Under the pieces are notes generated by a model, which did not search any database, was not told where the DNA came from, and saw nothing but the letters and a program-made list of their open reading frames with translations. This document shows, piece by piece, positions 21,594 through 63,922 of a stretch of DNA of 64,000 nt. Source of the stretch: a virus; IMG/VR virus record IMGVR_UViG_3300006028_000003, positions 1-64,000 of that record; one strand, written 5' to 3'. Each line of letters starts with the position of its first letter. Position 1 is the stretch's first letter. Position numbers and translations under genes: made by a program.

Positions 21594-22975
21594 GCGGTGT
21601 TACTTATTCCCCCGACACCCGGAACATACATCCCCACCCCCGCCGGATCGGCTTGGGCGTCAATGGTGGCCGGAGTGATAGGAACGTTGCCGTTGATGAC
21701 GCTAGGATTGGCTCTTGTTGCGGTGAAAGCGAAGCCTCCGCTACCCCCAATAATAATCTTGGGTGACATAGTATTGAGAAAAATGGAGACGGCCGAAGCG
21801 GTCAAGAAGGTGTGGCCCTCTTCGATCTGGTACTGGGTAGGGCCCCAGAAGCGGGGGCCATCGAAGAGGAATGCCCCAAAAGTGTTCGACCCTTGGGCGA
21901 TGAGCCCCATTTGAGCATAGACCGTCGCCAGGAGGCAGCCGTTGATGGAGCTCCCTCCACCCCCCGCTGGCGTAAGGATGACATTGCCGTCGAGGATGGC
22001 GCCGTTGATAGTGGTTGCCGCAAACCCGCCTAGAACGCGTGTCGTCGGAACCGAATCGACCAGGAGGGCCACCGCGTTTTGGCTTGTTCCCCCGTTGATG
22101 CCGAAGATGTCGGTGAAGGCGCAGTTGATGCAGTAGGTGCTCCTTACCGGGGCCCCCTGGTACATTGCCGCACGTCGATCGATGCGGCACTCTTGGAGCG
22201 CCACCCCGTTACCCCAATAGAAGGGGCTACCAGCGGTGCTCGCCTCGAACCCCAACTGCTGGATGTAGGCCCTCGCGACGCTGTCGGCGAACGTCGGGGT
22301 AAACTGAGCCATCTCGATGGAATCCAACAGATAGACATCAAAGGTATCACCGTTGGCCCAGGTATCCACGAAGGTGGGGATGCTAAGGGGGAGAGTTGTT
22401 CGAGTGAGGGCCTGGCTCAAGTTGAAGGTAGTCCCGGCGACGTTGGCGAAGGTAAAGGCGGCGCTTTCTTTACCCCCGGTCGTGTTGACCACCAATTGAT
22501 TGGTTGTGACCGCTCCTGCGCTTCCGAGGTCAGCGGTGAGGAGCTGGCCCGTCGCGTAATTCTTCGCGATGACCCCGGCTAGGACCCCAGATCCAATTTT
22601 GTTGGCGGTAACGAGGGTTCCTTGGAAGACCAGTTGAGAGCCGTTAGTGGCGGTCGGGCTAAAGATGATGGGGTCGGTTTCAGCTAGTGCGGTGCCGCTC
22701 AGGAAGGCCCAAGTGGTGTTCTGGGCTAGGATTGGTGAGTTGGTCCCGTACCTTTGGATGACCCCTTTATTCCAGGTCAAGACCGGGGTTGTTGATGTAG
22801 CCCCGTCGTTGCTATCAGAGGCTAGGCCGGTTCGGTTCTGCGGATCGATAAACCAAGCCGCGCGCAGCCAAAACGGATTGGGGGTCACCCCTCCACCGCC
22901 GCCGCCGCCGCCGGATGGAGTCAGGAGTTGAAGGGCCTCGAGTCGCTTTACCCTTCCTCGATCTTTCGGCTTCAT
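21590..22975 (-). CDS. Putative virion fibre/spike protein, paralogue C
   Basis: Same leader as paralogue A, a poly-Gly linker, then a body homologous to paralogue B. Confidence 0.6.
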   Translation of the reverse strand: MKPKDRGRVKRLEALQLLTPSGGGGGGGGVTPNPFWLRAAWFIDPQNRTGLASDSNDGATSTTPVLTWNKGVIQRYGTNSPILAQNTTWAFLSGTALAETDPIIFSPTATNGSQLVFQGTLVTANKIGSGVLAGVIAKNYATGQLLTADLGSAGAVTTNQLVVNTTGGKESAAFTFANVAGTTFNLSQALTRTTLPLSIPTFVDTWANGDTFDVYLLDSIEMAQFTPTFADSVARAYIQQLGFEASTAGSPFYWGNGVALQECRIDRRAAMYQGAPVRSTYCINCAFTDIFGINGGTSQNAVALLVDSVPTTRVLGGFAATTINGAILDGNVILTPAGGGGSSINGCLLATVYAQMGLIAQGSNTFGAFLFDGPRFWGPTQYQIEEGHTFLTASAVSIFLNTMSPKIIIGGSGGFAFTATRANPSVINGNVPITPATIDAQADPAGVGMYVPGVGGISNTA

Positions 22976-24459
22976 AGCCCCGCCGCGAGCATCTGTTGCA
23001 TCAAGATCCCTGCAAAGCGGTACTGCCCGCTCTTCGCGGGGTGGAGCCCATCGCTCTCGAAGAAGTTGGTGTTCGTCGGGATGTTGCCGGCAGCGCTTCC
23101 AAGCATCGCATCGGCCCCCGCATCGACGAGGTTGACCCTCACGTTAGCGGTTCCCATCCCCGGCAAGGCTGCGCGGATCCCAGCGTTGATCGTCTGGCGG
23201 TCGGTCTCGTTCGCGGGGCTGAACCCGTGAGCGAAGGTGATGGTAGCGCAGTTGACTTGGTGGGGGTGGCTTCCAACCGGCACCGAATTTAGCGCGCTTA
23301 CTCTCGCTGAGACAATGGCCAGATACTGAGAAAGGATATTGGCTGCGGTGTCGGTCCCGAGGCTGTTGATGCCCCCCTCGATGTTGACGATGTTGACAAC
23401 CCCCGCAAGATAATAGGGGTCAATCATCGTTCCTTGGGTCGTGATGTCGGGGAGATTTCCCCCACCTACTAGGCGGCTTCCAGAGACTGAGATGTTGAAG
23501 GGGAGCCCAAACCGGCCCCCGAGCGCGATCCCAGCCGCCCCCGCGTAAGCCCAAGGGGTGTTGAGGTGGAACGCGACGTTCCCCTGAAGATTGGCGCCGC
23601 CCGCGATGCTGTCGCCAATCTGGAAGACCTGATACTTTACCGTTTCATTTAGATTGGTCAGATTCCAATTCAAACGGAGGTAGGCATCGAGCTGGCCCCT
23701 TTGGGTTAGACTCAATGAATCCCAGATGCCGAAGAAGCCGATGCTTCCGGTGAGGGGGTTTGAGGCCGTATGGCCTACCCCCAGAGTTCCGCTAGTGGTG
23801 ATCGCGCCAGCCCCCGGAGCAGTTCCGGAATTGCTTACTGATTGAAGAACCCCGTTGACGGTAATCTTCGTCACCAACCCATCGTTTTCGACGATGACAT
23901 ACTGAGTCTGGTTATTGCCGGCCCAGAACGAGGGAGAGGCGGTATCGGCGTTTTCGGTATTGCCGGCCCTTCTAGTTCGGGCCCCCCAGCCGTTAGAGCT
24001 AGTCAATATAACCCCATCGGCCGCAGTGATGTTTGTGCTGACTTCCGCGATGGTCATGCTCTGACTATTCGAGGCCCCCCGCTGATTGGAGTCGGCTCTG
24101 AATAGGCAAACCATCACATAGGGAACCTGGAAAACCAACGCGGTAAAATTCAACCAAGTGGGGGTGCTGAAAAGGGGGATGCCTGGGCCTCCGGTTACAA
24201 TCGCCGGCTTCCCCCCCAACCCGATGGTGTCGTAGAACGGTCGGTTGATCGCTGCCGCCTGAGTCGCATCGGCCCCGTTCCCGCTCTGATCTTGCCAGGC
24301 GTCAACTGCCGTCCCGTCGGCCGCGGGGCTTCCACCAAACCGGATGGAGCTTGCAACGGAGGCATCCAAAACAACGCGGCCCCCTGCAGGTCGAATCGGG
24401 CTAAAGACCGGGGGAGCCACCGGCGGCGGCACGAAGAAGTTGGTGTTGACGGCAGGCAT
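22972..24459 (-). CDS. LamG/ConA-like domain fused to an SGNH/GDSL esterase
   Basis: W.DQSGNG.DATQ....RP at the N-terminus; IGDSI, EGGINS and DGLHP SGNH blocks. Confidence 0.78.
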   Translation of the reverse strand: MPAVNTNFFVPPPVAPPVFSPIRPAGGRVVLDASVASSIRFGGSPAADGTAVDAWQDQSGNGADATQAAAINRPFYDTIGLGGKPAIVTGGPGIPLFSTPTWLNFTALVFQVPYVMVCLFRADSNQRGASNSQSMTIAEVSTNITAADGVILTSSNGWGARTRRAGNTENADTASPSFWAGNNQTQYVIVENDGLVTKITVNGVLQSVSNSGTAPGAGAITTSGTLGVGHTASNPLTGSIGFFGIWDSLSLTQRGQLDAYLRLNWNLTNLNETVKYQVFQIGDSIAGGANLQGNVAFHLNTPWAYAGAAGIALGGRFGLPFNISVSGSRLVGGGNLPDITTQGTMIDPYYLAGVVNIVNIEGGINSLGTDTAANILSQYLAIVSARVSALNSVPVGSHPHQVNCATITFAHGFSPANETDRQTINAGIRAALPGMGTANVRVNLVDAGADAMLGSAAGNIPTNTNFFESDGLHPAKSGQYRFAGILMQQMLAAGL

Positions 24460-24665
24460 CAGGGGGATTCCTTAGGAGGCTCCGGGGGATCCGGCTTGAT
24501 GAAGGAACCTGAGGTGGGATCAAACCTCCAATCTCCTGGCTCAAGCCCCAGCGCTGCGGCGGTGGCCCCCAAGAAGTCGTTGAGCCGGGCCTGCGCGACG
24601 GCGAGGGTTTCCTGATGCCCCTTCATGAGGATGAGGCTTTGATCGGAGAGCTTTACGACCGTCAT
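24459..24665 (-). CDS. Small hypothetical protein, possible fibre assembly factor
   Basis: 68 aa ORF between fibre genes, translationally coupled. Confidence 0.4.
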   Translation of the reverse strand: MTVVKLSDQSLILMKGHQETLAVAQARLNDFLGATAAALGLEPGDWRFDPTSGSFIKPDPPEPPKESP

Positions 24666-24854
24666 TTGGTGATGACCCCTACGGAGACCAACCGGAGGTA
24701 GATCCGATGGGTGAGGCTTTGGCCATGCCGATCGGATAGCTTTGTTTCCTCGGCGATGATGGGCTCCGATTTCACCGGGTCGGCCTTGGCGATGGCGGCC
24801 TTGAAATATTCGACTGCTTCCGGATGTTCCATGGTCTTCTTCCTTGAGGGGAAT

Positions 24855-26120
24855 TTAGGCTAGTGCGACGAGGCGAGCAATCCCGCTCGTACCCCAAAAC
24901 ATGAGGTTGCCGGTGGTAGGGTCAACATAGAGCCCCCCGTACCCCGCTGGCATCGCAACGGTCGGGATCGCGTTTGCTTGACGGAACGAAAGGACCCCGT
25001 TGCCGCTTCCGAATTGCGCGGTGATAGAGAAGAGCTGGGTTCCGGCGGGCATCACTGCGACAGGGCAATGGGCGTCAGAGATGTCGTCGTTGTTGCCGAT
25101 CCACACCCCCGAGTTTTGGGCGCAGTTGACAAATAGTTGACCCCCCGGATTGATCTCGAGGGTGAAGTTGCCGGCGCTTTCGGTGAAGCCGAAGCCGCTC
25201 TGGAAGAGCCAAAGCGCTCCGAAAGAAGCCGACGATGCCGGGGCCCCGAAAGAAGCCACTGCATCCCCCGCCATCAAGAAACGATAGAAGCGGGTGGGCC
25301 CCCCTGCTGGTGGAGCTGGGAGGTTGAAGTTGATGTTTCCGTTAGTGCCCGCGGCTGCGGTAGTGGCCTGCGCGGTGATGTTGAGGTTCTCCGCGGTTGG
25401 GTTAGCGGTGGTCGCCTGGGAAATAGTCGGCGCCGCTTGCGTCGCCCCAAATTGGAGGTTGTTGTAAAGAATCGGAAGGGTGCCGCCGGCCCCGCCGACG
25501 CCAAGCGATTGCACCGTCGCGGTGACCTGGTAGCCGCTCGTGACGGTGAAGGCCAAATCTAATCCAGACAACAGTTGGGTAGCCGGCCCGTCGTAGGTAA
25601 CCCCGGACCCAGAGGGGATAACCGTCGTCGGAGCTGCGTTAGTGACCCCTCCACTTGAGCCAAGGTTGGTCAAAGTGATGGTTCCGACGCCGACCGCGAA
25701 GAGCGAATAGGCCCCACCGCCACCAGCGACTAGCACCGCGGCCCCCACTACCGCCCCGACGGTGTTACTCACCGAGACGACGACGTTGGAGCCGACGGCC
25801 GGTTGAGTGAAGTTGGCCGTCGTCGTTGCATTGAAGGCCGGTCCCGTAGGCCCGGTTACCCCCGCAGCGCCAGTGGCTCCGGTCGCGCCCGCTCCTGTTG
25901 CGCCCGTCGGCCCCAGGGGGCCGGTTGCGCCAGTCGCACCGTTCGGCCCGGTCGGCCCGGTCGGGCCTAGTGGACCAGTCGCCCCCGTGACACCTGCCCC
26001 AGTGGGCCCCGTCGGCCCGACTGGGCCTGTCGGGCCGGTAGCGCCTCCACCCCCACCACCTCCGGTGAGCGAGTCGATAGCGACTCTAGAAAACGTCGAA
26101 ATGGTTACGGGCTTGGTCAT
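24855..26120 (-). CDS. Collagen-like fibre protein
   Basis: About 20 Gly-Pro/Ala-Thr triplets after a poly-Gly run, then a beta-rich body. Confidence 0.8.
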
Positions 26121-26818
26121 GATCTTTTCCGTCTGTTGCGTTTCGGCGGTTGGTCGATAGTGAGGCCGTAGGCGACGGCGGCACTGGAGAGGAAGATGGC
26201 CCCAGCGATGAACCAGGGGCGGTGCTTGTCGTAGAATCCGTAGTCTAGACCGTAAACAGGATCGGTTTCAGGTCCGTACGGATTCGTTGAGCCGGTATCT
26301 ACTGAGGCATACGCTTGCGCGATTGCATCCTTCGCCGTTTGAGTGGCCGCGGCCCGCGCTACGAAGTTCGCTAGATCTTGGAGGCTTATGTAGCCTTTAC
26401 CTTTTGCATCGAGCCCTTTATTCGCGTTGTAGTAGGCGCTCGGTGCAGCGGTGACCGTATCGGTAAGATGCTTTACAGCCGGTAGAGTCGCCGGAAGGAA
26501 ATTCGCGAGGTAGACTCTGACCCCGCTCCGCAGCGGCCCGTACGACGCGACTAGGCCCTTCATAAAACCTAGAACGACTGTTTGAAGTTGCCGCGAGGCC
26601 GGCCAAGTCAGGTAGGTTTGGGGATCGGTTCCAGCGAATTGCTGAATCAAGCTAGCGCTAGCCTGATTGATTCCGTAGAACGGCTGCCCTGCTTGATTTG
26701 GGATTGCTGGGTTGAGCCCGCTCTCGGCGTATAGGACAGGGATAAGCCATTCCGGACGGATTCCAGTCTCGTTGTAGATCTGCCAAAAAATCGGAAATGA
26801 GGCGCTATCGAGACTCAC
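26117..26818 (-). CDS. Lytic transglycosylase (SLT-like) with C-terminal membrane anchor
   Basis: LYAESGLNP (catalytic Glu), [19 protein letters not shown]; [20 protein letters not shown] followed by KRNRRKRS. Confidence 0.78.
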
Positions 26819-49428: not shown

Positions 49429-50652
49429 GTGCACATGGTTGATAGCAACGAAAAACCCAATGATATCAAAGACTTAGCCTATGATCCGCCCGCTGCTGCG
49501 GTAGAGTCCGCCTCTGAGCTAGCCAAGGTACGAGCGCTGATGCGGATAGCGTCACCTAAGCTAGGCGAGAGCTTCGCGGCCTGGCGTGGGGCGAAGGCCG
49601 ATGGCCTTGCGACGGTCGATAAGTCGTCTCCCGCGGCCCTTGGCGGAGCGCTCTCGTTACCGCGCGCTGCACTAGTAGACGCTTTGGCCCCGGAGCTAGA
49701 CCCCGTACGCAAGTTCCTTGCTCTCAGCGAGAGCCCGCGGACCGCGCAGACCATGGCTGAGGGGCTCGCGCGCATCGGCGCCCTCTACGGCATCGCGCCG
49801 CAAGACGTCGCTTGGCACCAGCTTCGGCGCCTGCACACGACGGACATGCGACTTCGATTGCAGCGCGCCTATAGCCCCCGGACGGTCAACGTAACCCTTT
49901 GCGCGCTTCGGGGGGTGCTCCGGTGCGCCTGGGAGGACGAGCTCATGACCGGGGAGGAGTACACGCGCGCCATCGGGGTCAAGAACATGAAGGTGCGCCG
50001 GCTACCGAAGGGGCGATGGCTCGGGGAGGACACCAAGCGTGTGCTCAACCACTGCCGGGCCCTAGGGCCAACCGCGAAGGATTGGCCGGGGAGCGCCTTC
50101 GGTTCGTTCTTGCTCGTCTCGTGCGCGCTCATGTTCGCAGCCGGGCTCAGGGCCTCCGAGGTCGCGTGCTTGACGGTCAACTCGTACGATCGCCGTACGA
50201 AGGAGCTTCGTTTTATCGGCAAGGGCGGTGACGAAGCAATCGTACCCCTCGGCGACGAGGTGATCGGCGCGTTGGAGGAATGGCTTAGTGTCCGCGCGGA
50301 GCTCGACCTAGGGGAGGGCATGCCCCTCATCGTTCGCGTCCGCAAAGACGGGAGCGTCAACCCCCGGACGGCGCTCTTGAACCGGCGGAAGCTAGAGCAC
50401 CTCTGTAAGCAGATAGCACGCAAGGCCCTCGGCGAGAAATTCTCCCCCCACGATCTACGCCGGACCTTTTGCACTGACATCCTCGATCGCGGAACGGATC
50501 TCGCGACAGCGCAGCGGCTTATGCGGCACAAGAGCCCGGCGACAACCGCGCTCTATGATCGGAGACCAATCGAAGCCGATGCGGCGGTCCGGCGCAAGAT
50601 GAATCTTTTCGAGCGCAAGCCGTCTGATGGAGAGGAGAAGGATAAAGCATGA
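49429..50652 (+). CDS. Tyrosine recombinase/integrase
   Basis: Catalytic set R (GLRASE), K (GKGG), HxxR (PHDLRRTF), H (MRHKS) and Y (TALYD); true start may be further downstream. Confidence 0.92.
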   Translation: MHMVDSNEKPNDIKDLAYDPPAAAVESASELAKVRALMRIASPKLGESFAAWRGAKADGLATVDKSSPAALGGALSLPRAALVDALAPELDPVRKFLALSESPRTAQTMAEGLARIGALYGIAPQDVAWHQLRRLHTTDMRLRLQRAYSPRTVNVTLCALRGVLRCAWEDELMTGEEYTRAIGVKNMKVRRLPKGRWLGEDTKRVLNHCRALGPTAKDWPGSAFGSFLLVSCALMFAAGLRASEVACLTVNSYDRRTKELRFIGKGGDEAIVPLGDEVIGALEEWLSVRAELDLGEGMPLIVRVRKDGSVNPRTALLNRRKLEHLCKQIARKALGEKFSPHDLRRTFCTDILDRGTDLATAQRLMRHKSPATTALYDRRPIEADAAVRRKMNLFERKPSDGEEKDKA

Positions 50653-53297: not shown

Positions 53298-54223
53298 AGT
53301 TGCCTCACTGGGAAGAGGAGACAATCGCTCATCACCTTCGCCAAACAAGCGGCGGTGAGCTCGTAGCAACCCGGGGTCCAGAAGGGCGACGAGGGAGGCG
53401 GGTCTCCACTTGGCCAATCAGCTCCCCAAGAGTTAGGCCCCCCGAAAACGACCCCGCTCGGAGTGGTGTAGTAGTAGTCCAACGCAAGCCAATGGCCCCC
53501 GCCTTGCGGATCGTTGAGGTCGATGCTGTTGATCGGGCCTTGGGCCGGGGCCCAATTCATGAAGCCGCTATCGACGAAGATGCCGATCCCAGCCGTCGCC
53601 TTCGATGCGATAGAAGCTTGGATCTGCGCTGCAAAGTTGGGGTTCCTCTCGTCGATGCGATACTCCCCGGTGAGGAGCTTCAACCCGGAGGTTTCCAGAT
53701 CCAACAACGAGGGCTCATTGTTGACGTTGGGAACGATGGTAACTGGCGGGTAGAGGTTGAGGGCCGCAACGTCGTCGGGGCCCATGATGTCGGAGTAGCG
53801 GCCGTCGGGGGCCGGGGCCTGGATCGGGCTCACTCCGAATTGCCGGAGCACCGTCAAAAGGTCGGAAGGCATGGCCCCCGAGTCGGTAAGCGGCTGCGAC
53901 GCATCTTGCCGCTCGAGGATTCTAACGAGCGCGTAGCCGACACGTGGTGAGGGGACAAACGGGAGTGGGTTACCAGAAGCCGCCGCGGAGGTATAAACGG
54001 CTTGGGGGGTCCCGTGAAAAGTGCAGCTTCCGGTCGCGCCTTGGTTGAATAGCGGGGCCCGGAATGAAGCGAGGCTATCTTGCTGCGGGACCGTCGGAGA
54101 GGCCCCAAACCTCAGCGTCGAATCCTTCTGGCGCCTCTTGTGGTCCGCGTCGGGGATGTAGCCGAAGAACTTCCCGTTGAAGGCCTTCGCGATAGCTTCG
54201 TGCGCTGCGGTTCGGAAGGTCAT
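53294..54223 (-). CDS. Papain-like cysteine peptidase (C1A-like)
   Basis: NQGATGSCT (oxyanion Gln, catalytic Cys), GGHWL (His), PNSWG (Asn). Confidence 0.88.
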   Translation of the reverse strand: MTFRTAAHEAIAKAFNGKFFGYIPDADHKRRQKDSTLRFGASPTVPQQDSLASFRAPLFNQGATGSCTFHGTPQAVYTSAAASGNPLPFVPSPRVGYALVRILERQDASQPLTDSGAMPSDLLTVLRQFGVSPIQAPAPDGRYSDIMGPDDVAALNLYPPVTIVPNVNNEPSLLDLETSGLKLLTGEYRIDERNPNFAAQIQASIASKATAGIGIFVDSGFMNWAPAQGPINSIDLNDPQGGGHWLALDYYYTTPSGVVFGGPNSWGADWPSGDPPPSSPFWTPGCYELTAACLAKVMSDCLLFPVRQL

Positions 54224-56221: not shown

Positions 56222-56815
56222 TTAGACAACGACGACTTGGCGCATGAGCTTACCGCCCCCGGCCCCGACCGTCAGAGTCCCGTCGCCCGTAGCGGCTGCT
56301 TTGACCGTCAGTACGCGAGATCCGGCTGCGGGCCCCACTTCAACAGCCCATGCAGCTGAGACTGCGGTAGCGCCGCCTGCATAACCCTGCTCTATCGGGC
56401 CGCCGATCACCGAAACACCATCGATCTGAATGTCGAGCTCCAACGCACCACCGGCTGAGCTTCCGGCGACGCCAGCAGCGACGTAGCCGGTGATGATGAT
56501 GCTCTGCCCGGCCACGATCGTTACCGTCGCGGTGGCAACAGTTGCAAGCGATCCCGTCAGAACAACGGGGGCGCCGTTACTGGACGATCCAGTCGAGACC
56601 AGGTTTGCGGGGCCGGTGGGACCAGTAGCGCCGGTTCCCCCAGGGCCAGTCGCTCCCGTTGCTCCGGTAGGCCCCGTCGCGCCGGAACCAGCGGGGCCCG
56701 TTGGACCAGTCGCACCAGAAGGACCCCCTGGCCCAGTCGCTCCGGCGCCACCCGGAGGGGTTCCGACGGATGTTGCGATTGTGCCGACGTAGGTGCTGTA
56801 GGGGATAGGGGGCAT
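56222..56815 (-). CDS. Short collagen-like fibre with beta-sandwich head
   Basis: About 14 G-[PA]-[TS] triplets; head similar to that of 32803-33654. Confidence 0.75.
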   Translation of the reverse strand: MPPIPYSTYVGTIATSVGTPPGGAGATGPGGPSGATGPTGPAGSGATGPTGATGATGPGGTGATGPTGPANLVSTGSSSNGAPVVLTGSLATVATATVTIVAGQSIIITGYVAAGVAGSSAGGALELDIQIDGVSVIGGPIEQGYAGGATAVSAAWAVEVGPAAGSRVLTVKAAATGDGTLTVGAGGGKLMRQVVVV

Positions 56816-56837
56816 GGTTTTTCCGTCGGTCCGGGTT

Positions 56838-57305
56838 TTACAGATCCGCGACTACAATCGTCGCGTCGCCGGTGAGAATTTGCGCGGTGTGACCACCGCC
56901 AATTGACGCCCTGACCCCGTAGGTATGGGAGGCGCCGGGGGCCGGAGTGTCGATGAAGGTGGCGGCCCCGAATGCTTTGACGCTCCCGGTTGCGGTTCCT
57001 GCGCTCACCTCGGAGGTGCCGCCGACTGGGGTGGTTCCATCGCGGAAGATCTGAACGGTTACCGCGTCACCGTCGGCTAGGGTTCCGGGGGCGACGCTGA
57101 TCGTTCCAACGACCAACACCTTGCCGGTTCCGGAAATAAACGCACTCGAGTCCCACTCCACCGTTGCGCCGGGCCCGATGGGAGCGGCGTTGGTCTGGCT
57201 CAGGTTGTTACCGGAGGGGCTTCCCGACGCGCCGCGCCCGAGGGCACCGAGGATCGAGGTGTAGGCCTTGTTAGCCAGAGCGGTAACGGATTTCATGGGG
57301 ATCAT
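56838..57305 (-). CDS. Putative virion structural beta-sandwich protein
   Basis: VQIFRDG and FIDTP.PG.SHTYGV; located in the virion-type operon. Confidence 0.55.
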   Translation of the reverse strand: MIPMKSVTALANKAYTSILGALGRGASGSPSGNNLSQTNAAPIGPGATVEWDSSAFISGTGKVLVVGTISVAPGTLADGDAVTVQIFRDGTTPVGGTSEVSAGTATGSVKAFGAATFIDTPAPGASHTYGVRASIGGGHTAQILTGDATIVVADL

Positions 57306-57799
57306 CCTCGGCGGCGGTTTTTCTTCCAGTAAAGGTAGCCGAAAACACCGGCGGTCGCGACTCCAGCTCCGATGAGAGCAAACGGAATCATGTTCGACGG
57401 TGGGGGGTTCGTAGGAACAGTCGGAGTTGGGGTCGGCGGTGTCGGGGTTGGTGCCGGAGGCACAACGGGGGGGACAACGGGGGGAGCCGGGGGAATGACC
57501 GGAACAACTGGCGGAGCGACACTAGGGGTGAAGCAATCCGGGGGCGCGGTCCCCTGCCCGAGGGTGCTCATCACGAATTGCAGCGCCCCGCGGGTTAGCG
57601 GCCCATACTTCCCGTCTTCAACGAGCGGGTTGTTTGGGTTAGCCAGGTTCCATTGCACCTGGAAGTCATGGCATTCCGGAAAGGGTTGCTGGGTGCAAGG
57701 ATTGCCCGAAAGCCAGCCGATCAGATCAGCGGCGGTCTGCGCGAGGGGCGTTGGCGGAAGATCCGGTTGCCCAAAAGCCAGTCGAGGCATCCAACTCAT
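57302..57799 (-). CDS. Peptidoglycan-binding-like membrane protein 1
   Basis: FQ..WN...LVEDGKYGPLTRGAL (PG_binding_1-like), Pro-rich stalk, TM, KKNRRRG tail. Confidence 0.7.
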   Translation of the reverse strand: MSWMPRLAFGQPDLPPTPLAQTAADLIGWLSGNPCTQQPFPECHDFQVQWNLANPNNPLVEDGKYGPLTRGALQFVMSTLGQGTAPPDCFTPSVAPPVVPVIPPAPPVVPPVVPPAPTPTPPTPTPTVPTNPPPSNMIPFALIGAGVATAGVFGYLYWKKNRRRG

Positions 57800-58341
57800 C
57801 GATGATGCTTCTTCCGCTTCCAGGCCCAGTAAATCAAGCCGGCTCCGAGAACCGCGGCACCGCCGATGATGACGGGGGTTGGAATCCCAGTGGCTCCGGC
57901 GGGGGTAATGGCCGTCGGAGTCGTTGGAGCCGGCGCGGGGGGCTCGTCAGGTTGCGGCGTCGTAGGCACCACGTCGCTGAAAACATTCTGGGGCGCCAAC
58001 TGCGAAGGCCCGATGACGTTGTTCAACGCAACCTGAGTGTTGGGCCCATATTGGCCGTCAACAGTAAGGCTCCCAGGCAACCCGGAGCTATTGTAGGCGC
58101 TCTGGAAAGCAGAGACTTGCGGAACCGAATCTCGCGAAGGGGCATTGGTGGCAAAGAAGGCCATCAGATCCGCCGCCGCCGATTGCGCCGCGGGGAGGTC
58201 ACCAAAGCCGGATCCACCCGCAAGGCCTTGGCTATAGGTGATCCCGTTAGCAGCAACCCACCAAGTTTTTTCGACTAGCATCGGAGTTGCTCCGAGGCCG
58301 AAGGGGCCACTTCCGAGGGGAGCTTTGATCCAAGTTTTCAT
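57796..58341 (-). CDS. Peptidoglycan-binding-like membrane protein 2
   Basis: FQSAYN...LTVDGQYGPNTQVAL, Pro/Thr stalk, TM, KRKKHHR tail. Confidence 0.7.
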   Translation of the reverse strand: MKTWIKAPLGSGPFGLGATPMLVEKTWWVAANGITYSQGLAGGSGFGDLPAAQSAAADLMAFFATNAPSRDSVPQVSAFQSAYNSSGLPGSLTVDGQYGPNTQVALNNVIGPSQLAPQNVFSDVVPTTPQPDEPPAPAPTTPTAITPAGATGIPTPVIIGGAAVLGAGLIYWAWKRKKHHR

Positions 58342-59148
58342 TTACATCTCCACCACGAGGGAAACACCGACCCGCCAATATCGAGGGCGCCCGCCTTCGT
58401 CGCTGCCGAAGTTGCCGATGAAGTTCTCCTCGAGAGGAAGGCCAAGCGCTGGAGTCAACGCGGGGTAGGCTCCGGAGCTTTGCTTCACGCTGATGAAGAA
58501 CGCGATGGTGTCGGGGCCTTCAACGGTGATGTCGAGGCTACGCCAGGCGCCGTGCGTTCGCTGTTGGGTCCGGAGGTCGAAGAAGGTGGAGTGGTTCCCT
58601 TGGCTAAGGGGGGTTCCCCAGGGGCGGCCCAACATCGGCGGTTGGTAGGAAGTGAGCTGGGTGTAGATCCGGTTCCCTGCGGCGATAGTGTATTTGTTGT
58701 AGAGGAGGCAAGGGCCATCAGCCCAAAGCCGCTTGAAGCTATTCAAGTCAAGCGGGGTCGGATCGGTCAGGGGATACCCGGAGTTATTCGGGGGCCCGAG
58801 TCGATGCATGTGCCAAGAAATGTTGCCGTCGGGCAACCGGAAGTTGGGGGAGATGATCTCCTGCTCGACGAATCGAGTCGGAGAAGTTGCAACCCCAAGG
58901 GAGGCAAATTGCCGGTAGCCAACGATGCGAGCAACCCCGCCTTCGCCAAGGCTGAAGGAGGCCCCCAAGAAAAGATACCGGGAGGCCTTATCCGAGGTCG
59001 CAAGGGTTGGGACCCTCAAGCCGAAGGAGGAGGCCCCGCCGAAGGGGTCTCCGCCTTGAGCTTGCAAGAACTCATCGAGGCCGGTGGTCTCAAACTCCGA
59101 GACGCGCCGGCTCCCTCTGAGTAGTTCGGGGTTGAGGGGCTGCACCAT
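58342..59148 (-). CDS. Hypothetical protein, candidate capsid or penton component
   Basis: 268 aa, soluble, alternating hydrophobic beta-strand patterns; function inferred from position only. Confidence 0.45.
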   Translation of the reverse strand: MVQPLNPELLRGSRRVSEFETTGLDEFLQAQGGDPFGGASSFGLRVPTLATSDKASRYLFLGASFSLGEGGVARIVGYRQFASLGVATSPTRFVEQEIISPNFRLPDGNISWHMHRLGPPNNSGYPLTDPTPLDLNSFKRLWADGPCLLYNKYTIAAGNRIYTQLTSYQPPMLGRPWGTPLSQGNHSTFFDLRTQQRTHGAWRSLDITVEGPDTIAFFISVKQSSGAYPALTPALGLPLEENFIGNFGSDEGGRPRYWRVGVSLVVEM

Positions 59149-59155
59149 CGCGGTC

Positions 59156-59908
59156 CTACAATGAGAGGACCATCTTGATGTAGGAGTCGCTCATCTCGAT
59201 CCCGAAGTCATTCTGCAACGAGTCGATGGCCTCGCGGGTCGTCATTGTAACAAAAGATTGGGTTACTGGCACCCAGCCGCGGTAGGTGCAGACGACTTCG
59301 ATCGGCGCGTAGGGGAGAAGGATCTTCGCGTTGAAGTCCATCCACAACTGCTGCTGATAGGTGAGCACCCAACCGCCAGGCCAATGGGAGCTCCCGGTGA
59401 CCATATCGGCCAACGTACTCAACGGGGTGTATTTGTTGGCGACGTCGTAGCGAGGCGCGCCTTGGATGCTCAGCTTTGCTTCGATCCCCGACTGGAAGCC
59501 GAAGAAGAAGTCGCTGAACGCTTGGAATTGGTTTTGGTTCGCGGTCGAAGATTCGTTCTGAACCCTCACCACCAACGCATCGATGAGGGTGTCCTGAACG
59601 ATCTTGACGTCGGAGCCGACCCCGGTAATGACCGAAGTTGCGGTATCGGGGAAGATTGCCCGGACGTTGATGATGTAAGGCGCGAGGGGAACTCCCTTCG
59701 CCTTGGCGAGAGCGAGCCTCGGAGAACCCGCCGCCAGCATCGCGTAGACGCCGGCAGCGAGGGGTCCGAGGACATTGTCGGTGCAGTCGCAGCTCCCCAT
59801 ACCGAAGGCTTTCACCTTCGGCTTTGGGGGGGCTCCGAGACCCGCTGTTTTCGAGAGCAGCTTTTCGAGTTGCTCGTTGGAGATCCAGGCTCCTGCTTGC
59901 TGAGTCAT
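59156..59908 (-). CDS. Hypothetical protein, candidate capsid component
   Basis: 250 aa, AAGGAGGT RBS, beta-strand patterns; function inferred from position. Confidence 0.45.
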   Translation of the reverse strand: MTQQAGAWISNEQLEKLLSKTAGLGAPPKPKVKAFGMGSCDCTDNVLGPLAAGVYAMLAAGSPRLALAKAKGVPLAPYIINVRAIFPDTATSVITGVGSDVKIVQDTLIDALVVRVQNESSTANQNQFQAFSDFFFGFQSGIEAKLSIQGAPRYDVANKYTPLSTLADMVTGSSHWPGGWVLTYQQQLWMDFNAKILLPYAPIEVVCTYRGWVPVTQSFVTMTTREAIDSLQNDFGIEMSDSYIKMVLSL

Positions 59909-59941
59909 CGAGGGTTACCTCCTTTCAGGGGGTAGCCCCGA

Positions 59942-61297
59942 TCACTGCGCTGCGAACCGCATCCCGACGCACTCGAACACGGCCGCGCGGATGTCGGCGC
60001 TCGCACTGAGCTGGTTGTACCAATCCTGGGAGACTTCGAAGCCGCGGATCGGGAGGGTCAACTTGAGGTCGCCAGACTGGTAGACAACGCGCTCGGCGTC
60101 GACTTGCTGCGCGACGTCGGTTCCGTCGAGGGTGCGCTCCAACATGACGGGAGAAGCGCCGCCTGCGGTCGGCTCCGCGATCCAGTTGCTGTCCGACGTG
60201 AAGATCGGGGGGATGCTCCCGCCGAAGCCCTGCGTGATGCTGAGGAACTGGCGCATCTGGTCGCCTTCCACGGAGTCACACTCCTGAAGGAAGATCCCGA
60301 TCGGAACGCCGCGGGGGATCACGTAGGGGACGCAGAGCTTGCGCATCTCCTTGTTGCCGTTGAGCATCGACCGGAGATCCATGCCGCCGTAGGTGGCGCC
60401 GACGATCTCGAAGTCACGCGTCGGGGTGAACCGCCCGACGTTGACACCGCCGGTGGCCGCAGAGCCGAGCCGAAGGAAGTCGACGCGGCTGAAGTTGAGG
60501 GCCGTGCCGAGCTCATCGTAGCGCTGGTTCAGGTTGCGCTCGAAGGTGACGGTATCGACCTCAGAGCTGGAAGCAGAGCCTTCCTGCGCCGACGGAGGCA
60601 TGTACGCCGTGTGACGGAGCTGATCGTCGCAGATGTTGGTGTGCTGACCGATCTTCCACCGGTAGTTATAGGCGCGGCTCATGTGCCAGCAGACGTAGTT
60701 CGCCCACCACCCGTGACGCCACACCGCGGGGAGAGCGACGCCCGTGGGGCTTGCGCCTGCGAAAGCGGCGCCGAGAGCTCCGTTGAAGCGGTCGTTCTGG
60801 GTGAAGACGTCAGGAGAAGGCGGCTTCGCAACAGCGGCCGTCGGATGCGTAAACGCATTGCCCCGGGCGGTGAAGCAGAGGGGTTCCGGCTCCATGATGA
60901 AGCCGACATAGCAGGCGACGAAGTTCGTCTGGGTCTGCCCGGTCTGCGCCATCGTGGTTTCCACGAAGTCGATTCCGAAGGGCGACTTGCCGGCGCCGAA
61001 GAGGTCGATCTCCGCGCCGAAGTTACTCCGGACGCTTTCGTCGACCTGAGGGCCGGTCATCGTCCATCGGACTTCCTCGATCACGTCCATGTTCCAGTAG
61101 GGGGTGTTGCTTGACTCCTGCATCAGGTCGATGATGCTTCCGAACCCAGACTTGAGGGTCGCGGCGTCCTTGACCTTACTGAGGTCGAGCGCTCGGCCCT
61201 GACCAACCTGGTATCGATCGCTGGGCCGCTCCCTCTTGCGGATTTCCGCCGCCCGAGGGGCGACATTGCGAGACTGAACGAGACCTCTGTAATCCAT
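59942..61297 (-). CDS. Candidate major capsid protein (non-HK97)
   Basis: 451 aa, GGAGA RBS, visibly strong C/G-ending codon bias, directly downstream of the basic core-like gene; no family recognised. Confidence 0.45.
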   Translation of the reverse strand: MDYRGLVQSRNVAPRAAEIRKRERPSDRYQVGQGRALDLSKVKDAATLKSGFGSIIDLMQESSNTPYWNMDVIEEVRWTMTGPQVDESVRSNFGAEIDLFGAGKSPFGIDFVETTMAQTGQTQTNFVACYVGFIMEPEPLCFTARGNAFTHPTAAVAKPPSPDVFTQNDRFNGALGAAFAGASPTGVALPAVWRHGWWANYVCWHMSRAYNYRWKIGQHTNICDDQLRHTAYMPPSAQEGSASSSEVDTVTFERNLNQRYDELGTALNFSRVDFLRLGSAATGGVNVGRFTPTRDFEIVGATYGGMDLRSMLNGNKEMRKLCVPYVIPRGVPIGIFLQECDSVEGDQMRQFLSITQGFGGSIPPIFTSDSNWIAEPTAGGASPVMLERTLDGTDVAQQVDAERVVYQSGDLKLTLPIRGFEVSQDWYNQLSASADIRAAVFECVGMRFAAQ

Positions 61298-61396
61298 GAT
61301 GCGATTCTCCGTGGTTAGGTGGCCCTCTTAGGCGCCCACCAGTTTTGAACCGCACTCAGCTTTCGTTTCCCCGGAAGCTGGAATCTTGCTCAAGAT

Positions 61397-62959
61397 CTAT
61401 TCGTCGTTGAAGCCCCAGTTGAAGCGGTTTCGGCCGCCATTCTTGGGGACTCCGGTAAGGTTCTGCATGTTGAGGCTCGGCGGAGGAGCCGCGGGGGGTG
61501 GCGGGGGAGGAGGCGGCGGGGCCGTCATCTGGGGGGTCGGCGCCTGGGTTTGGGCGTTTTGGGAGGTTTCCCGGGGCATGCTCGGGTAACCCAGGTTTTT
61601 TTGCTCGCAGGGAGCGCAATCACCAAGGGGTTTCCCAAGCTGGGGCCTTCCGAGGCCTGCTGAGGGGAGGGAAGCCAAATCGGCGGCTTGCTGGTTTCCG
61701 TTGTTCGCCTTGAGAACCGCGGCCCTCATCTCACCGTCGTAGAGGCGCTGGCCGGTTCCCATGCCCTTGGTGAGCGTCGCGATTGCGTCGATGGCGCCCT
61801 TACCAACGACTCGAACTCCCCAGCCGAACGCTGCGAATTGCATCGAAGCGCGGACCATCGGGGCCTTGACGAAACTCGCGGTGACGAACATCACCGCGGG
61901 AACGCCGATGCCGGCGGCCCATCGGCCAAGATCCATCGGAGCGCAAATCGCGGTCGGATTGAAGAGCCCGGAATAACTCCCGGAAGTCGGAGGGTTGTCG
62001 GCGTAGAGCTCGTTTCCGTTCGCATCCTTGGTGCCCTTATCGGTCAGGGCGTGGGTCGCGATGAAGCGGTCGAGAGCATCGCCGCCGAGGAAGCCGAGGG
62101 TGCCGAAGATCGAGGCGACGAAGAGCTCACCGCCAGTCAAGCCGTATTGGCTTGGGTTGCGCCTCGATCGGCCACGGCGTCGACCACGGCGGCGCTCGGC
62201 CGCGTAGTCTTCACGTCGACTCGACCGGCTTCGGAAGCCCTGCGAAGCCATACGGCCTCGACGGGCCGCGTGGGCCTTTTTGATGTTGCGGCGGGCGGCG
62301 GCGATTTGCTTTCGGCTCGCCTTGCGCTTTCCACCACCGCTCTTGCGGCGACCGCGCGACTTCCGCTTCGGGGCTTTGCCCGCCCGGCGTCGACGTGCCC
62401 AACCCTTTTTGGCTGCCTTCGCGTGCCGACGAGGGGCTCCACGCCATTCGCTTGCGGAGCTCTTTCGGCTCTTCCGACGCCGTTTCGCGGCCTTGCGCTT
62501 CGCCTTGCTGCGCTTGCGCTTCGGGGTCGGGTTGTGCTTTGCGCGCCGCTTACCCTTCGACCGGCGCTTTTTGCGCGGGGTCTCGGAGGCCCGATGTTTC
62601 GATCGACGCGCGGCCTTTGCGGCGCGGATCATCTTCCGCGTAGCGCGCTGTTGCGCAGCGGTGCGAGCCTTCTTGCGACCCTTTTTCTTGGCCATCGGTG
62701 CTTTCCTCGAAGATTTTGCGCCTGACCTGCCTTTCCCCGTTGAAGTTGTGCTCTCTCGAAGTGAAGCGCGGCGGCGATGGTATGTCAAGCCCCTCCCCTT
62801 CTTGTGCGCCTTCTTCTTAGTCTTACGGCGGTAGCCAAAATCTAGCCGCCGGCCTTTTTTGCTCTCCTTGCTACCGGTGATCCGGCCCTTGGCTGTCGCG
62901 GCAAATTCGGGCCCGGATTCACGGTTGGAGTCCAGGCGAGCGAGGTAATCTATCGGCAT
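61397..62959 (-). CDS. Extremely Arg/Lys-rich protein with membrane segments, putative DNA-condensing core protein
   Basis: About 230 aa protamine/histone H1-like tract ending RRNP, hydrophobic helices, poly-Pro C-terminus; alternative start at 62695 (MAKKKG). Confidence 0.7.
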   Translation of the reverse strand: MPIDYLARLDSNRESGPEFAATAKGRITGSKESKKGRRLDFGYRRKTKKKAHKKGRGLTYHRRRASLRESTTSTGKGRSGAKSSRKAPMAKKKGRKKARTAAQQRATRKMIRAAKAARRSKHRASETPRKKRRSKGKRRAKHNPTPKRKRSKAKRKAAKRRRKSRKSSASEWRGAPRRHAKAAKKGWARRRRAGKAPKRKSRGRRKSGGGKRKASRKQIAAARRNIKKAHAARRGRMASQGFRSRSSRREDYAAERRRGRRRGRSRRNPSQYGLTGGELFVASIFGTLGFLGGDALDRFIATHALTDKGTKDANGNELYADNPPTSGSYSGLFNPTAICAPMDLGRWAAGIGVPAVMFVTASFVKAPMVRASMQFAAFGWGVRVVGKGAIDAIATLTKGMGTGQRLYDGEMRAAVLKANNGNQQAADLASLPSAGLGRPQLGKPLGDCAPCEQKNLGYPSMPRETSQNAQTQAPTPQMTAPPPPPPPPPAAPPPSLNMQNLTGVPKNGGRNRFNWGFNDE

Positions 62960-62968
62960 CGAAGCCTC

Positions 62969-63922
62969 CTAGGGGCGCACAAAACCACGGTCGTCCAGTT
63001 GAGCACCGCGGGGGAGCTCCAACCGACAAAACTTTCCGCGTTTGTAGAGGCGGACCTTCTTGTGGCCCCCCAAGAGTGACATCAAGCCCTTGTTGAATTC
63101 ATGGCGAAAATAGCCCGCGCGTCGGCCACTTCGGGTGTAGAAGATGTCCGCCACCTCCCCCAAGTAAGACCAATCCCTCAACGCCTTCGGCGGGGTGTTG
63201 ACCCTTCCGAGGTGACCGTCGCTCCGACCAAAGTAAGCCTTCGCATCGCCTTCGATATCAACCCGGCTTTCTCGAAGCTTAGCCGGCCCAATCAAAACAC
63301 TCTTTGAAGGCCACCATCGGCCGCTCGGGTCATGCATCATCGCTCCGGAGCAATGAATCTCGCGGCCGTCGGCAAGTTCGAAGGTGACCCCGCGCCCCTT
63401 GGCGATAAGGGCCTTGCTTCCTAGTTTTCTTCCGCCGCCGCCGGTGGGATTTTCCTTGGGCCCCTTGAAGATCATCCAACCCATCACCCCGAGGCCCACC
63501 GCGACGAGGCCCCACAAAGCGGCCGCCGCAACGCTAGTCGGTGTCGACGTAGAAGTAGCTTTGACGGGGGTAGCGGGGGTGATCTGCGGCGCTGACGCAA
63601 CCGGGCCTCTTAGATCTGCTTGAATGAGCTTCGCGAGGTCTTGGGCGGTATGAGCGGTCTGGGGTGAAGCGAGGTGCCAGTCGAGCGCTTGCAGTTGGGT
63701 GAGGACCCCATCGATTTCGGGGGGCCAAGAAGTGACCTGCGCCTTGATCGTCGCAACTTGCGGGATGATGGCTTGGTAGGCCTGGACCGCATTTTCCCAC
63801 TTCTTGGCGACCATGAAGGCGTCGCCGGAGTCGATCGTGACCCCGAGGTTCTGCAAGTCGACCGCGGCGGAGCCGAAGCCTTGCGGTATTCCCCCTAGAG
63901 TCGGACACGCTCGTATGTGCAT
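62969..63922 (-). CDS. Single-pass membrane protein, putative virion protein
   Basis: Helical N-terminal domain, Thr/Pro linker, TM AAALWGLVAVGLGVMGWMIF, KENP, basic C-terminal domain. Confidence 0.6.
   Translation of the reverse strand: MHIRACPTLGGIPQGFGSAAVDLQNLGVTIDSGDAFMVAKKWENAVQAYQAIIPQVATIKAQVTSWPPEIDGVLTQLQALDWHLASPQTAHTAQDLAKLIQADLRGPVASAPQITPATPVKATSTSTPTSVAAAALWGLVAVGLGVMGWMIFKGPKENPTGGGGRKLGSKALIAKGRGVTFELADGREIHCSGAMMHDPSGRWWPSKSVLIGPAKLRESRVDIEGDAKAYFGRSDGHLGRVNTPPKALRDWSYLGEVADIFYTRSGRRAGYFRHEFNKGLMSLLGGHKKVRLYKRGKFCRLELPRGAQLDDRGFVRP

What the first reader, a model, noticed from the sequence alone, without database searches (positions are those of the whole stretch)
56222..63922. 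Virion operon with no tailed-phage hallmarks: candidate new large, temperate, internal-membrane virus
Seen: a co-oriented operon encoding a membrane protein, a huge Arg/Lys-rich membrane-anchored protein, three orphan soluble proteins (451, 250 and 268 aa), two peptidoglycan-binding proteins with a TM and basic tail, and fibre proteins. In 64 kb that contain replication, lysis, integration and many fibre genes I recognise no terminase, portal, HK97 capsid, tail tube, sheath or tape measure. Known: many small TM proteins, a TM-anchored transglycosylase (PRD1 P7), a collagen-containing spike (PRD1 P5) and GroE dependence characterise jelly-roll-capsid viruses with an internal membrane (Tectiviridae, with related architecture in Sphaerolipoviridae), whose genomes are much smaller. 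Inference: a Varidnaviria-like morphogenetic module joined to a tailed-phage-like replication module (PolA, Dda, Sak4, SNF2) in a genome over 64 kb.
Basis: partly seen in the sequence, partly recalled or inferred. Interest (0 to 1): 0.9.

Follow-up and report, generated by a model that had tools for sequence, protein, structure and literature searches.

The report
Large tailless jelly-roll soil virus
This operon is most likely the particle-building module of an uncultured 76-kb virus of a soil bacterium that has none of the head, portal or DNA-packaging genes of ordinary tailed phages. It seems instead to build a jelly-roll protein shell around a membrane and protamine-condensed DNA, a design so far described only in much smaller viruses.

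Summary
Nine co-oriented minus-strand genes lie at the stated coordinates, and the operon continues beyond the window to about 71.9 kb of a complete 76,031-bp genome with a 110-bp terminal repeat.

Pfam and PHROGs scans of every ORF of 300 aa or more found no terminase, portal or HK97 capsid protein. Six-frame searches of four near-complete related genomes also found none, and found no FtsK/HerA/A32 packaging ATPase.

A six-gene core is syntenic in all relatives: a transglutaminase-like Cys-His-Asp enzyme, a small conserved domain, a protein with a 230-280-aa Lys/Arg-rich N-terminal domain and a hydrophobic C-terminal half, then proteins of 451, 250 and 268 aa.

The virus looks tailless with jelly-roll proteins, but it is not a canonical PRD1-type module: no packaging ATPase was found and a double jelly roll is unproven. 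The nearest working analogue is the archaeal virus SPV1.

Earlier follow-ups in this scan reported similar viruses on other DNA. No publication describing them was found.

The parts
59942..61297 (-). 451-aa candidate major capsid protein (mostly beta, jelly-roll-like)
   Evidence: It has the highest GC3 in the genome, 0.84, and the highest in each relative's neighbourhood, 0.85-0.90. It is the most conserved protein across four genomes, at 74/62/59% identity. The family has 232+ homologues on contigs of 60-82 kb and 184 clusters at 50% identity. The AF2 model has pLDDT 77.8 and about 19 strands. Its only fold matches are weak and mostly to jelly-roll proteins, many of them viral capsid proteins. 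No HK97 match was listed.
59156..59908 (-). 250-aa single jelly-roll virion protein (second capsid or penton candidate)
58342..59148 (-). 268-aa conserved core virion protein, fold unresolved
   Evidence: It has 96 homologues and always lies directly after the 250-aa gene. It matches nothing in Pfam, PHROGs, NCBIfam or PDB sequences. It has no Pro/Gly-free run longer than about 16 aa across 47 homologues.
61397..62959 (-). 520-aa protein: N-terminal ~280-aa Lys/Arg-rich (protamine-like) domain plus a conserved hydrophobic C-terminal half and a Pro-rich tail
   Evidence: Composition is. Positional equivalents in L004-L007 and L013 keep 17-27 K+R per 50 aa over 200-280 aa, although that domain's sequence is not conserved, and they share a conserved C-terminal half with hydropathy peaks.
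62969..63922 (-). 317-aa protein with a central TM segment and a conserved ~150-aa C-terminal domain
   Evidence: The C-terminal domain is conserved in all relatives, often as a separate 154-217-aa ORF.
57796..58341 (-). 181-aa tail-anchored protein: soluble domain, Pro-rich linker, TM segment, basic tail
   Evidence: It is a paralogue of the next gene (E 2e-8). It carries only a PG_binding_1-like motif and gives no Pfam hit.
57302..57799 (-). 165-aa paralogue with the same architecture
56838..57305 (-). 155-aa Gly/Thr/Ala-rich orphan
   Evidence: It is weakly conserved in relatives.
56222..56815 (-). 197-aa collagen-like (Gly-X-Y) fibre protein
   Evidence: PHROG tail-fibre repeat families, E 3e-5. 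Sequence.
26117..26818 (-). 233-aa lytic-transglycosylase-like protein with a C-terminal TM segment and basic tail
   Evidence: PHROG 196, 4928 and 3874 (transglycosylase domain), E 3e-8 to 9e-6. TM segment at 203-221 and tail KRNRRKRS.
18828..26120 (-). Adsorption block: three paralogous beta-helix-like spike proteins (504, 416, 461 aa), a 495-aa virion protein and a 421-aa collagen fibre
   Evidence: Shared N-termini and repeats are visible in the sequences. PHROG hits: virion structural protein and tail fibre.
49429..50652 (+). Tyrosine integrase (temperate lifestyle)
   Evidence: PHROG 1 integrase, E 4e-31. Conserved in all four genomes.

Best explanation
The operon is the core of the virion module of an undescribed lineage of temperate bacterial viruses from soil, with genomes of about 70-80 kb. 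These viruses are not tailed phages.

Proposed working:
1. The late operon makes a shell from the 451-aa beta-rich protein, the 250-aa single jelly-roll protein and probably the 268-aa protein.
2. The shell forms over a lipid vesicle studded with virus-encoded membrane proteins.
3. The 520-aa protein neutralises and condenses the DNA through its Lys/Arg-rich N-terminal domain. Its hydrophobic C-terminal half ties the DNA to that membrane. The genome would then be enclosed by co-assembly rather than pumped in by a terminase or an FtsK/HerA-type motor.
4. A membrane-anchored transglutaminase-like Cys-His-Asp enzyme, encoded just upstream at 64404-65702 of the contig, probably processes virion proteins.
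5. Tail-anchored proteins carry wall-binding or wall-cutting ectodomains and basic tails. They probably help breach the peptidoglycan at entry.
6. Collagen-like fibres and beta-helix spikes bind the host.

Shown here: gene content, conservation and synteny, composition, the jelly-roll fold of the 250-aa protein, and no detected hallmark gene or packaging ATPase. Inferred: the capsid role of the 451-, 250- and 268-aa proteins, the membrane, motor-less encapsidation, proteolytic maturation and the entry role.
For: - The genome is complete: 110-bp DTR, CheckV 100%.
- Pfam and/or PHROGs scans of every ORF of 300 aa or more, and of many smaller ones, found no TerL, portal, HK97 capsid, tail tube, sheath or tape measure. 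The largest non-replication ORFs are under 600 aa.
- Six-frame searches of four genomes at least 92% complete found no Terminase_6N, TerL_ATPase, Terminase_6C, Phage_portal, Phage_capsid, Pox_A32, FtsK_SpoIIIE or DUF87 at E up to 1.
- The only canonical Walker A motif in six frames belongs to Dda.
- The core common to four genomes holds no conserved orphan that could be a motor or portal. The 451-aa protein is the most conserved of all and has the top GC3.
- The six-gene core is syntenic even in a relative at about 50% identity on a 68%-GC contig.
- The 250-aa model is an eight-stranded jelly roll with viral capsid proteins at the top of two independent searches.
- The 451-aa model's weak matches are dominated by jelly-roll capsid proteins: HCIV-1, SPV1, HHIV-2, PRD1 P3, P23-77, HPV L1, STIV.
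- The Lys/Arg-rich domain is kept as a compositional feature in all relatives.
- TM proteins are enriched in the module, 11/17 against 13/81.
- The Cys, His and Asp of the transglutaminase-like core are invariant in five relatives, and one relative carries an intein exactly at that Cys.
- SPV1 shows that a jelly-roll shell over a membrane and a nucleoprotein core exists in nature (PMC8459092).
Against: - The 268-aa protein and the other conserved orphans (200, 299, 488, 425 aa and the 317-aa C-terminal domain) were not folded. A very divergent portal, motor or HK97 protein is therefore not excluded, because a missing HMM hit is not absence.
- The Sak4-like ATPase has a deviant P-loop, which shows that the Walker-A regex can miss ATPases.
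- The membrane is inferred from crude hydropathy only.
- PHROGs labels such as 'tail fibre', 'baseplate hub' and 'head closure' appear, though only on generic repeat or enzyme domains.
- There is no virion, proteome or lipid data.
Confidence: 0.6

Rival explanations
1. It is a tailed phage (Caudoviricetes) whose terminase, portal and HK97 capsid protein have diverged beyond profile-HMM detection. The jelly-roll proteins would then be decoration or cement proteins, or receptor-binding proteins.
For: The replication module is of tailed-phage type: PolA, Dda, Sak4-like, SNF2, primase-helicase. PHROGs hits carry labels such as tail fibre, baseplate hub and head closure. Jelly-roll cement proteins of phages Pam1 and KHP40 are among the matches of the 250-aa model. 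Several conserved orphans were not folded.
Against: TerL is normally the easiest hallmark to detect. It is missing in Pfam, PHROGs and NCBIfam scans and in six-frame searches of four near-complete genomes. No conserved orphan has a P-loop. No ORF of tape-measure size exists. The most conserved and most codon-biased virion gene models as mostly beta and gave no HK97 match among the listed Foldseek or VIA rows. The PHROGs hits fall on collagen repeats, Ig-like repeats and a transglycosylase domain, not on tail-specific folds.
Confidence: 0.15
2. It is a virus with a different, non-icosahedral virion, for example an enveloped or pleomorphic particle around a protamine-DNA core. The jelly-roll proteins would be matrix, spike or fusion components rather than a closed shell.
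For: The module holds many membrane proteins. No packaging motor was found. A DNA-condensing protein with a hydrophobic half is present. The 451-aa model fits no known capsid protein well.
Against: The 451- and 250-aa proteins are extremely and uniformly conserved and keep fixed adjacency, which is typical of lattice-forming shell proteins. The best fold matches of the 250-aa protein are shell-forming jelly rolls.
Confidence: 0.15
3. It is a canonical Varidnaviria (PRD1/Tectiviridae-like) morphogenetic module: a double jelly-roll capsid protein, a penton and an A32-type packaging ATPase, joined to a large replication module.
For: A jelly-roll protein lies next to the capsid candidate. PRD1 P3, STIV, PBCV-1 and Sputnik capsid proteins appear among the weak matches of the 451-aa model. 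The genome also encodes a TM-anchored transglycosylase and collagen-like fibres.
Confidence: 0.07
4. It is not a virus but a plasmid or integrative element, and the operon encodes cell-envelope proteins.
For: The operon has many TM and wall-associated proteins and an integrase. No virion hallmark was recognised by sequence.
Against: The record has terminal repeats, and relatives have a narrow size range. It encodes a phage lysozyme (E 5e-37), collagen fibres and spikes with phage-family hits, a capsid-like jelly roll and a Lys/Arg-rich DNA-condensing domain. No conjugation or partition genes turned up in the scans.
Confidence: 0.03

Closest known systems
Portogloboviridae (Sulfolobus polyhedral virus 1, SPV1; capsid in PDB 6OJ0)
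   Different: SPV1 infects an archaeon and has a 20-kb genome with no replication genes. This virus is bacterial (lysozyme, transglycosylase, integrase) and has 76 kb with its own PolA-based replication module. No sequence similarity was detected. The condensing protein here is fused to a hydrophobic domain. The 451-aa protein is far larger than VP4 or VP10.
Tectiviridae / PRD1 and other prokaryotic double jelly-roll viruses (Bamfordvirae, Preplasmiviricota)
   Same: Both are tailless with an internal membrane carrying many small virus-encoded TM proteins. Both have a membrane-associated transglycosylase, vertex spikes and a jelly-roll protein next to the capsid gene.
   Different: No FtsK/HerA-type packaging ATPase was found. 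The capsid candidate is not shown to be a double jelly roll. The polymerase is PolA rather than protein-primed PolB. The genome is 76 kb, whereas Preplasmiviricota genomes are under 50 kbp (abstract of PMC11071308).
Sphaerolipoviridae-type viruses (HCIV-1, HHIV-2, SH1, P23-77; two single jelly-roll capsid proteins)
   Different: Those viruses encode a packaging ATPase and have genomes of 16-31 kb (my knowledge). Here no ATPase was found, and the larger protein has about 19 strands rather than one compact barrel.
Adenovirus core and maturation system (protein VII/mu plus the adenain cysteine protease)
   Same: Arg-rich proteins condense the genome inside a jelly-roll shell, and a virion cysteine protease of papain-like fold matures structural proteins. 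This is an analogy from textbook knowledge.
   Different: Adenovirus is eukaryotic, has no internal membrane, and uses the IVa2 packaging ATPase and a clear double jelly-roll hexon. No homology was tested or implied.

Membership tests
Caudoviricetes / Duplodnaviria | Large terminase subunit (TerL ATPase-nuclease) | tested here: not met
   There was no hit in Pfam and/or PHROGs scans of all ORFs of 300 aa or more. Six-frame searches with Terminase_6N, TerL_ATPase and Terminase_6C hit 0 of 4 near-complete genomes at E up to 1. No spare canonical Walker A exists. Caveat: this is profile-level absence only.
Caudoviricetes / Duplodnaviria | Portal protein | tested here: not met
   No portal family appeared in any Pfam or PHROGs scan. 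The Phage_portal six-frame search hit 0 of 4 genomes. No conserved alpha-rich orphan of portal size lies in the four-genome core. Caveat: the remaining orphans were not folded.
Caudoviricetes / Duplodnaviria | HK97-fold major capsid protein | tested here: inconclusive
   The Phage_capsid six-frame search hit 0 of 4 genomes, and no capsid family was found in PHROGs or Pfam. The models of the 451- and 250-aa proteins listed no HK97 match. The 268-aa protein and other orphans were not folded.
Varidnaviria, Bamfordvirae (PRD1-adenovirus lineage) | [quoted passage not shown] | tested here: inconclusive
Varidnaviria, Bamfordvirae (PRD1-adenovirus lineage) | FtsK/HerA-superfamily (A32-like) genome-packaging ATPase | tested here: not met
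   Six-frame searches with Pox_A32, FtsK_SpoIIIE and DUF87 hit 0 of 4 near-complete genomes at E up to 1. The only canonical P-loop is in Dda. The small ATPase present is Sak4/AAA_24-like and lies in the replication module.
Varidnaviria, Bamfordvirae (PRD1-adenovirus lineage) | Single jelly-roll minor capsid (penton) protein next to the capsid gene | tested here: met
Portogloboviridae (SPV1) | Single jelly-roll shell proteins | tested here: met
Portogloboviridae (SPV1) | Sequence homology to SPV1 virion proteins; archaeal host; ~20-kb genome | tested here: not met
   Profile searches of A1-A4 against all PDB sequences, which include 6OJ0, found nothing. The genome is 76 kb with bacterial-type lysozyme, transglycosylase and integrase.
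Portogloboviridae (SPV1) | Nucleoprotein core inside an internal lipid membrane | not testable with these tools
   Only indirect signs are available: a conserved Lys/Arg-rich domain fused to a hydrophobic half and enrichment of TM proteins.
Tectiviridae | Protein-primed family-B DNA polymerase and a linear genome with inverted terminal repeats | tested here: not met
   The polymerase is family A (PHROG 17, E 4.5e-71). The contig ends are a 110-bp direct repeat, not an inverted one.

The most novel reading that the evidence does not exclude
These 70-80-kb soil viruses, and the larger look-alikes that earlier follow-ups of this scan reported, may form a lineage of bacterial viruses outside both Duplodnaviria and canonical Varidnaviria. 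They would enclose a large dsDNA genome without any packaging motor. A membrane-tethered protamine-like protein would condense the DNA, and a novel jelly-roll-derived shell would assemble over the membrane. This would be the bacterial counterpart of archaeal SPV1, at four times its genome size and with a complete tailed-phage-type replication module.
Probability: 0.35. Interest if true: 0.9.

Novelty: new variant of a known kind. Interest (0 to 1): 0.78.

Why it matters
Known tailless, membrane-containing bacteriophages are small; known Preplasmiviricota genomes are under 50 kbp (PMC11071308). As far as I know, those studied in detail pump DNA in with an FtsK/HerA-type ATPase.

A widespread soil lineage with 70-80-kb genomes, jelly-roll shell proteins, no recognisable motor and a membrane-tethered DNA-condensing protein would have three consequences:
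- It would extend the size range of non-tailed phages.
- It would give a bacterial example of motor-less encapsidation of a large dsDNA genome.
- It would show that tailed-phage-type replication modules can be combined with a completely different virion module.

It also exposes a blind spot in virus-discovery pipelines, which rely on terminase, portal and HK97 markers. The capsid family has 184 clusters at 50% identity and carries no annotation anywhere.

Tried and rejected
- **Phage database:** blastn of the operon and tblastn of the 451-aa protein against 50,697 phage records found no match.
- **Sequence relationships:** hhalign among the 451-, 250- and 268-aa families showed no relationship. 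Profile searches of A1-A4 against PDB sequences gave only noise.
- **Family scans:** PHROGs on 51 diverse members of the capsid family gave 0 hits. NCBIfam on ten core proteins gave 0 hits.
- **ESM Atlas:** no usable hit for the 451-aa protein. For the 268-aa protein only sub-threshold rows appeared, and the Atlas model has pLDDT 0.34.
- **Complex prediction:** the 451-aa protein with the 250-aa protein gave 'no answer', score 0.00. This is not evidence either way.
- **HK97 in fold searches:** none was listed for either model. This is an absence only.
- **Host search:** the genome-contig scan found only two short MAG contigs, one Polyangiaceae and one Chloroflexota. Among 401 Myxococcota genomes only that same MAG matched. 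The host stays unknown.
- **Sequencing runs:** the source is a rhizosphere metagenome. No RNA holder was listed.
- **tRNAs:** none in the window.
- **Pfam PG_binding_1:** it did not score the 165- and 181-aa proteins even at E up to 5.
- **Literature:** six searches found no description of such viruses.

Full report
**Observation.**
- The 317-aa protein has a central hydrophobic segment.
- The 520-aa protein has Lys and Arg making up nearly half of its first ~280 residues. A hydrophobic half and a Pro-rich tail follow.
- The 451-, 250- and 268-aa proteins are soluble orphans.
- The 181- and 165-aa proteins are paralogues (E 2e-8). Each has a Pro-rich linker, a C-terminal TM segment and a basic tail.
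- A 155-aa orphan and a 197-aa collagen-repeat protein complete the set.

Two details are weaker than stated. The Lys/Arg-rich protein is not 'huge'. The peptidoglycan-binding label rests on a short motif that Pfam does not score. A neighbouring 126-aa TM protein at 68258-68638 of the contig does reach PG_binding_1, at E 3.8e-5.

**The genome is complete.** The window is bases 1-64000 of a single 76,031-bp contig whose ends repeat exactly over 110 bp. IMG/VR classes it as DTR and CheckV as 100% complete.

The remaining 12 kb continues the same minus-strand block:
- a 432-aa transglutaminase-like protein with a C-terminal TM segment
- four small TM proteins
- a 425-aa multi-TM protein
- a Pro-rich 488-aa protein
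- a 299-aa protein with Ig-like repeats
- an acidic 200-aa protein

RadC-GNAT, ThyX and a DUF3310 protein follow. None of these is a terminase, portal or capsid family.

**Hallmark genes are missing genome-wide.** Every ORF of 300 aa or more, and most of those of 120-300 aa, was scanned against Pfam and/or PHROGs. The recognised genes were:
- Replication and recombination: PolA, Dda, a Sak4/AAA_24-like ATPase, a primase-helicase, a PD-(D/E)XK nuclease, SNF2 and HNH.
- Modification: a glycosyltransferase-methyltransferase fusion.
- Lysis and integration: a phage lysozyme, a transglycosylase and an integrase.
- Adsorption: collagen-like fibres and beta-helix proteins.

No TerL, portal, HK97 capsid, tube, sheath or tape measure was found. 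No structural ORF exceeds 600 aa.

Six-frame searches covered this genome and three relatives at least 92% complete (73, 78 and 69 kb). They found nothing at E up to 1 for Terminase_6N, TerL_ATPase, Terminase_6C, Phage_portal or Phage_capsid. They also found nothing for Pox_A32, FtsK_SpoIIIE or DUF87. All of these searches did find hits in control genomes.

The only canonical Walker A in six frames is Dda's. The Sak4-like protein has a deviant P-loop, so that regex is not exhaustive.

**A conserved six-gene core.** Five IMG/VR relatives and a distant contig from a Polyangiaceae MAG with 68% GC keep the same gene order:
1. a transglutaminase-like enzyme
2. a ~150-aa conserved domain, which is the C-terminus of the 317-aa protein here
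3. a 500-586-aa protein with a Lys/Arg-rich N-terminal domain and a conserved hydrophobic C-terminal half
4. a 434-465-aa homologue of the 451-aa protein
5. a 197-251-aa homologue of the 250-aa protein
6. a 266-297-aa homologue of the 268-aa protein

The Lys/Arg-rich domain is not conserved in sequence but always in composition, at 17-27 K+R per 50 residues. In the distant relative it is built of PRRRRRR repeats.

A whole-genome comparison of four genomes shows what the shared core contains:
- the replication genes, the glycosyltransferase-methyltransferase pair and the integrase
- this virion module plus the 488-, 299- and 200-aa proteins

No further conserved orphan could hide a motor or a portal. 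The 451-aa protein is the most conserved protein of all, at 74/62/59% identity against 54/51/38% for PolA. It also has the highest GC3 in every genome. That is the expected profile of a major capsid protein.

Its family has over 232 members at 90% clustering, on contigs that cluster at 60-82 kb. It forms 184 clusters at 50% identity among 1.84 billion representatives. None carries a name or matches any PHROG. No deposited phage matches it.

**Folds.**
It has no Pro/Gly-free stretch longer than about 16 residues across 47 homologues, which weakly argues against an HK97 spine helix.

**Membrane and maturation.** By a simple hydropathy rule, 11 of 17 products in the block 56222-71100 carry a TM-like segment, against 13 of 81 elsewhere (p = 1e-4).

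Three proteins share one architecture: ectodomain, Pro-rich linker, TM segment, basic tail. They are the 181- and 165-aa proteins and the 233-aa transglycosylase at 26117-26818. This architecture fits tail-anchoring in a virion membrane, with the basic tail facing the DNA. That is an inference.

The transglutaminase-like protein reaches Pfam Transglut_core only at E 4.7e-4, just under the cut-off. Its Cys, His and Asp are invariant in five relatives. In one relative (L006) a ~335-aa intein interrupts the gene exactly at that Cys. Inteins typically sit at catalytic sites of essential proteins.

**Most likely working.** The virion appears to be tailless. A shell of the 451-, 250- and probably 268-aa proteins would form over a protein-studded membrane. 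The DNA would be condensed and tethered by the Lys/Arg-rich protein and enclosed by co-assembly rather than by a motor. A cysteine protease would mature the particle. Wall-active anchored proteins would serve entry, and collagen fibres and beta-helix spikes would serve adsorption.

The integrase is conserved in all four genomes, so a temperate lifestyle is likely.

**Comparison with known viruses.**
- The nearest documented design is archaeal SPV1: single jelly-roll VP4 and VP10 over a membrane and a nucleoprotein core (PMC8459092). This virus is not a member of that family. No sequence homology was found, the host is bacterial and the genome is four times larger.
- It fails the ATPase criterion of Bamfordvirae and Sphaerolipoviridae-type viruses.
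- It fails the PolB and inverted-repeat criteria of Tectiviridae.
- Known Preplasmiviricota have genomes under 50 kbp (PMC11071308 abstract).

**Prior notes and literature.** Six literature searches found no description of such viruses. Earlier follow-ups in this scan reported the same kind of virus on other DNA, with genomes of 37-182 kb. Those are unchecked AI notes, and only one shares any sequence words with this capsid gene. They show recurrence within the scan, not independent proof.

**Limits.**
- Fold scores are middling.
- Several conserved orphans are unfolded.
- The membrane, capsid roles and motor-less packaging are inferred.
- The host is unknown. The sample is a rhizosphere metagenome, and the MAG links to Polyangiaceae and Chloroflexota are weak.
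- The complex prediction gave no verdict.

Noticed in passing
L006:4984-7287 (IMG/VR relative, 78-kb DTR genome): The transglutaminase-like virion enzyme is 767 aa here, against 404-602 aa elsewhere. A ~335-aa insertion starts with Cys and ends with Asn followed by Cys, exactly at the conserved catalytic Cys of the GDCDD motif. It looks like an intein with a homing-endonuclease-sized body.
   Followed up: partly
window 18828-22975: Three adjacent paralogous proteins of 504, 416 and 461 aa look like beta-helix spikes. Two share an N-terminal MKP.DRGRVKRLEAL motif, which may be a common virion-attachment module with swapped receptor-binding bodies.
   Followed up: no
window 28941-31276, between collagen fibre genes at 24855-26120 and 32803-33654: A methyltransferase and a glycosyltransferase-methyltransferase fusion (PHROG 3408, E 1e-64) are conserved in all four genomes. 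They lie between Gly-X-Thr collagen fibre genes, so the fibres may be glycosylated.
   Followed up: no
window 8084-9253: The Sak4/AAA_24-like ATPase has a deviant P-loop (WPKKGST) instead of GxxxxGK[ST]. Its listed ORF probably starts too far upstream, because the N-terminal 120 aa are Arg/Pro-rich and not conserved.
   Followed up: no
window 53294-54223: A 309-aa orphan carries papain-like motifs (GSCTFHG ... GGHW). Pfam and PHROGs give no hit. It is conserved in two of three relatives and may be a second cysteine peptidase or an endolysin.
   Followed up: no
L001:10079-11647 (contig 72078-73646): A 522-aa fusion of a GNAT acetyltransferase-like region with a C-terminal RadC/JAB domain (Pfam RadC, E 4e-21). 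The RadC part is conserved in all four genomes.
   Followed up: no
L011 and L013 (two contigs of one Polyangiaceae MAG): The same MAG bin holds two different copies of the capsid gene on separate contigs, one at 68% GC with the full six-gene core. No other of 400 Myxococcota genomes searched has it. This is a weak host lead or a binning artefact.
   Followed up: partly
window 59942-61297, residues 99-105 of the product: The capsid candidate carries a nearly invariant G-x-G-K-S motif that resembles a P-loop. In the model it lies in a loop of a beta-rich protein, so it is probably not a nucleotide-binding site.
   Followed up: no
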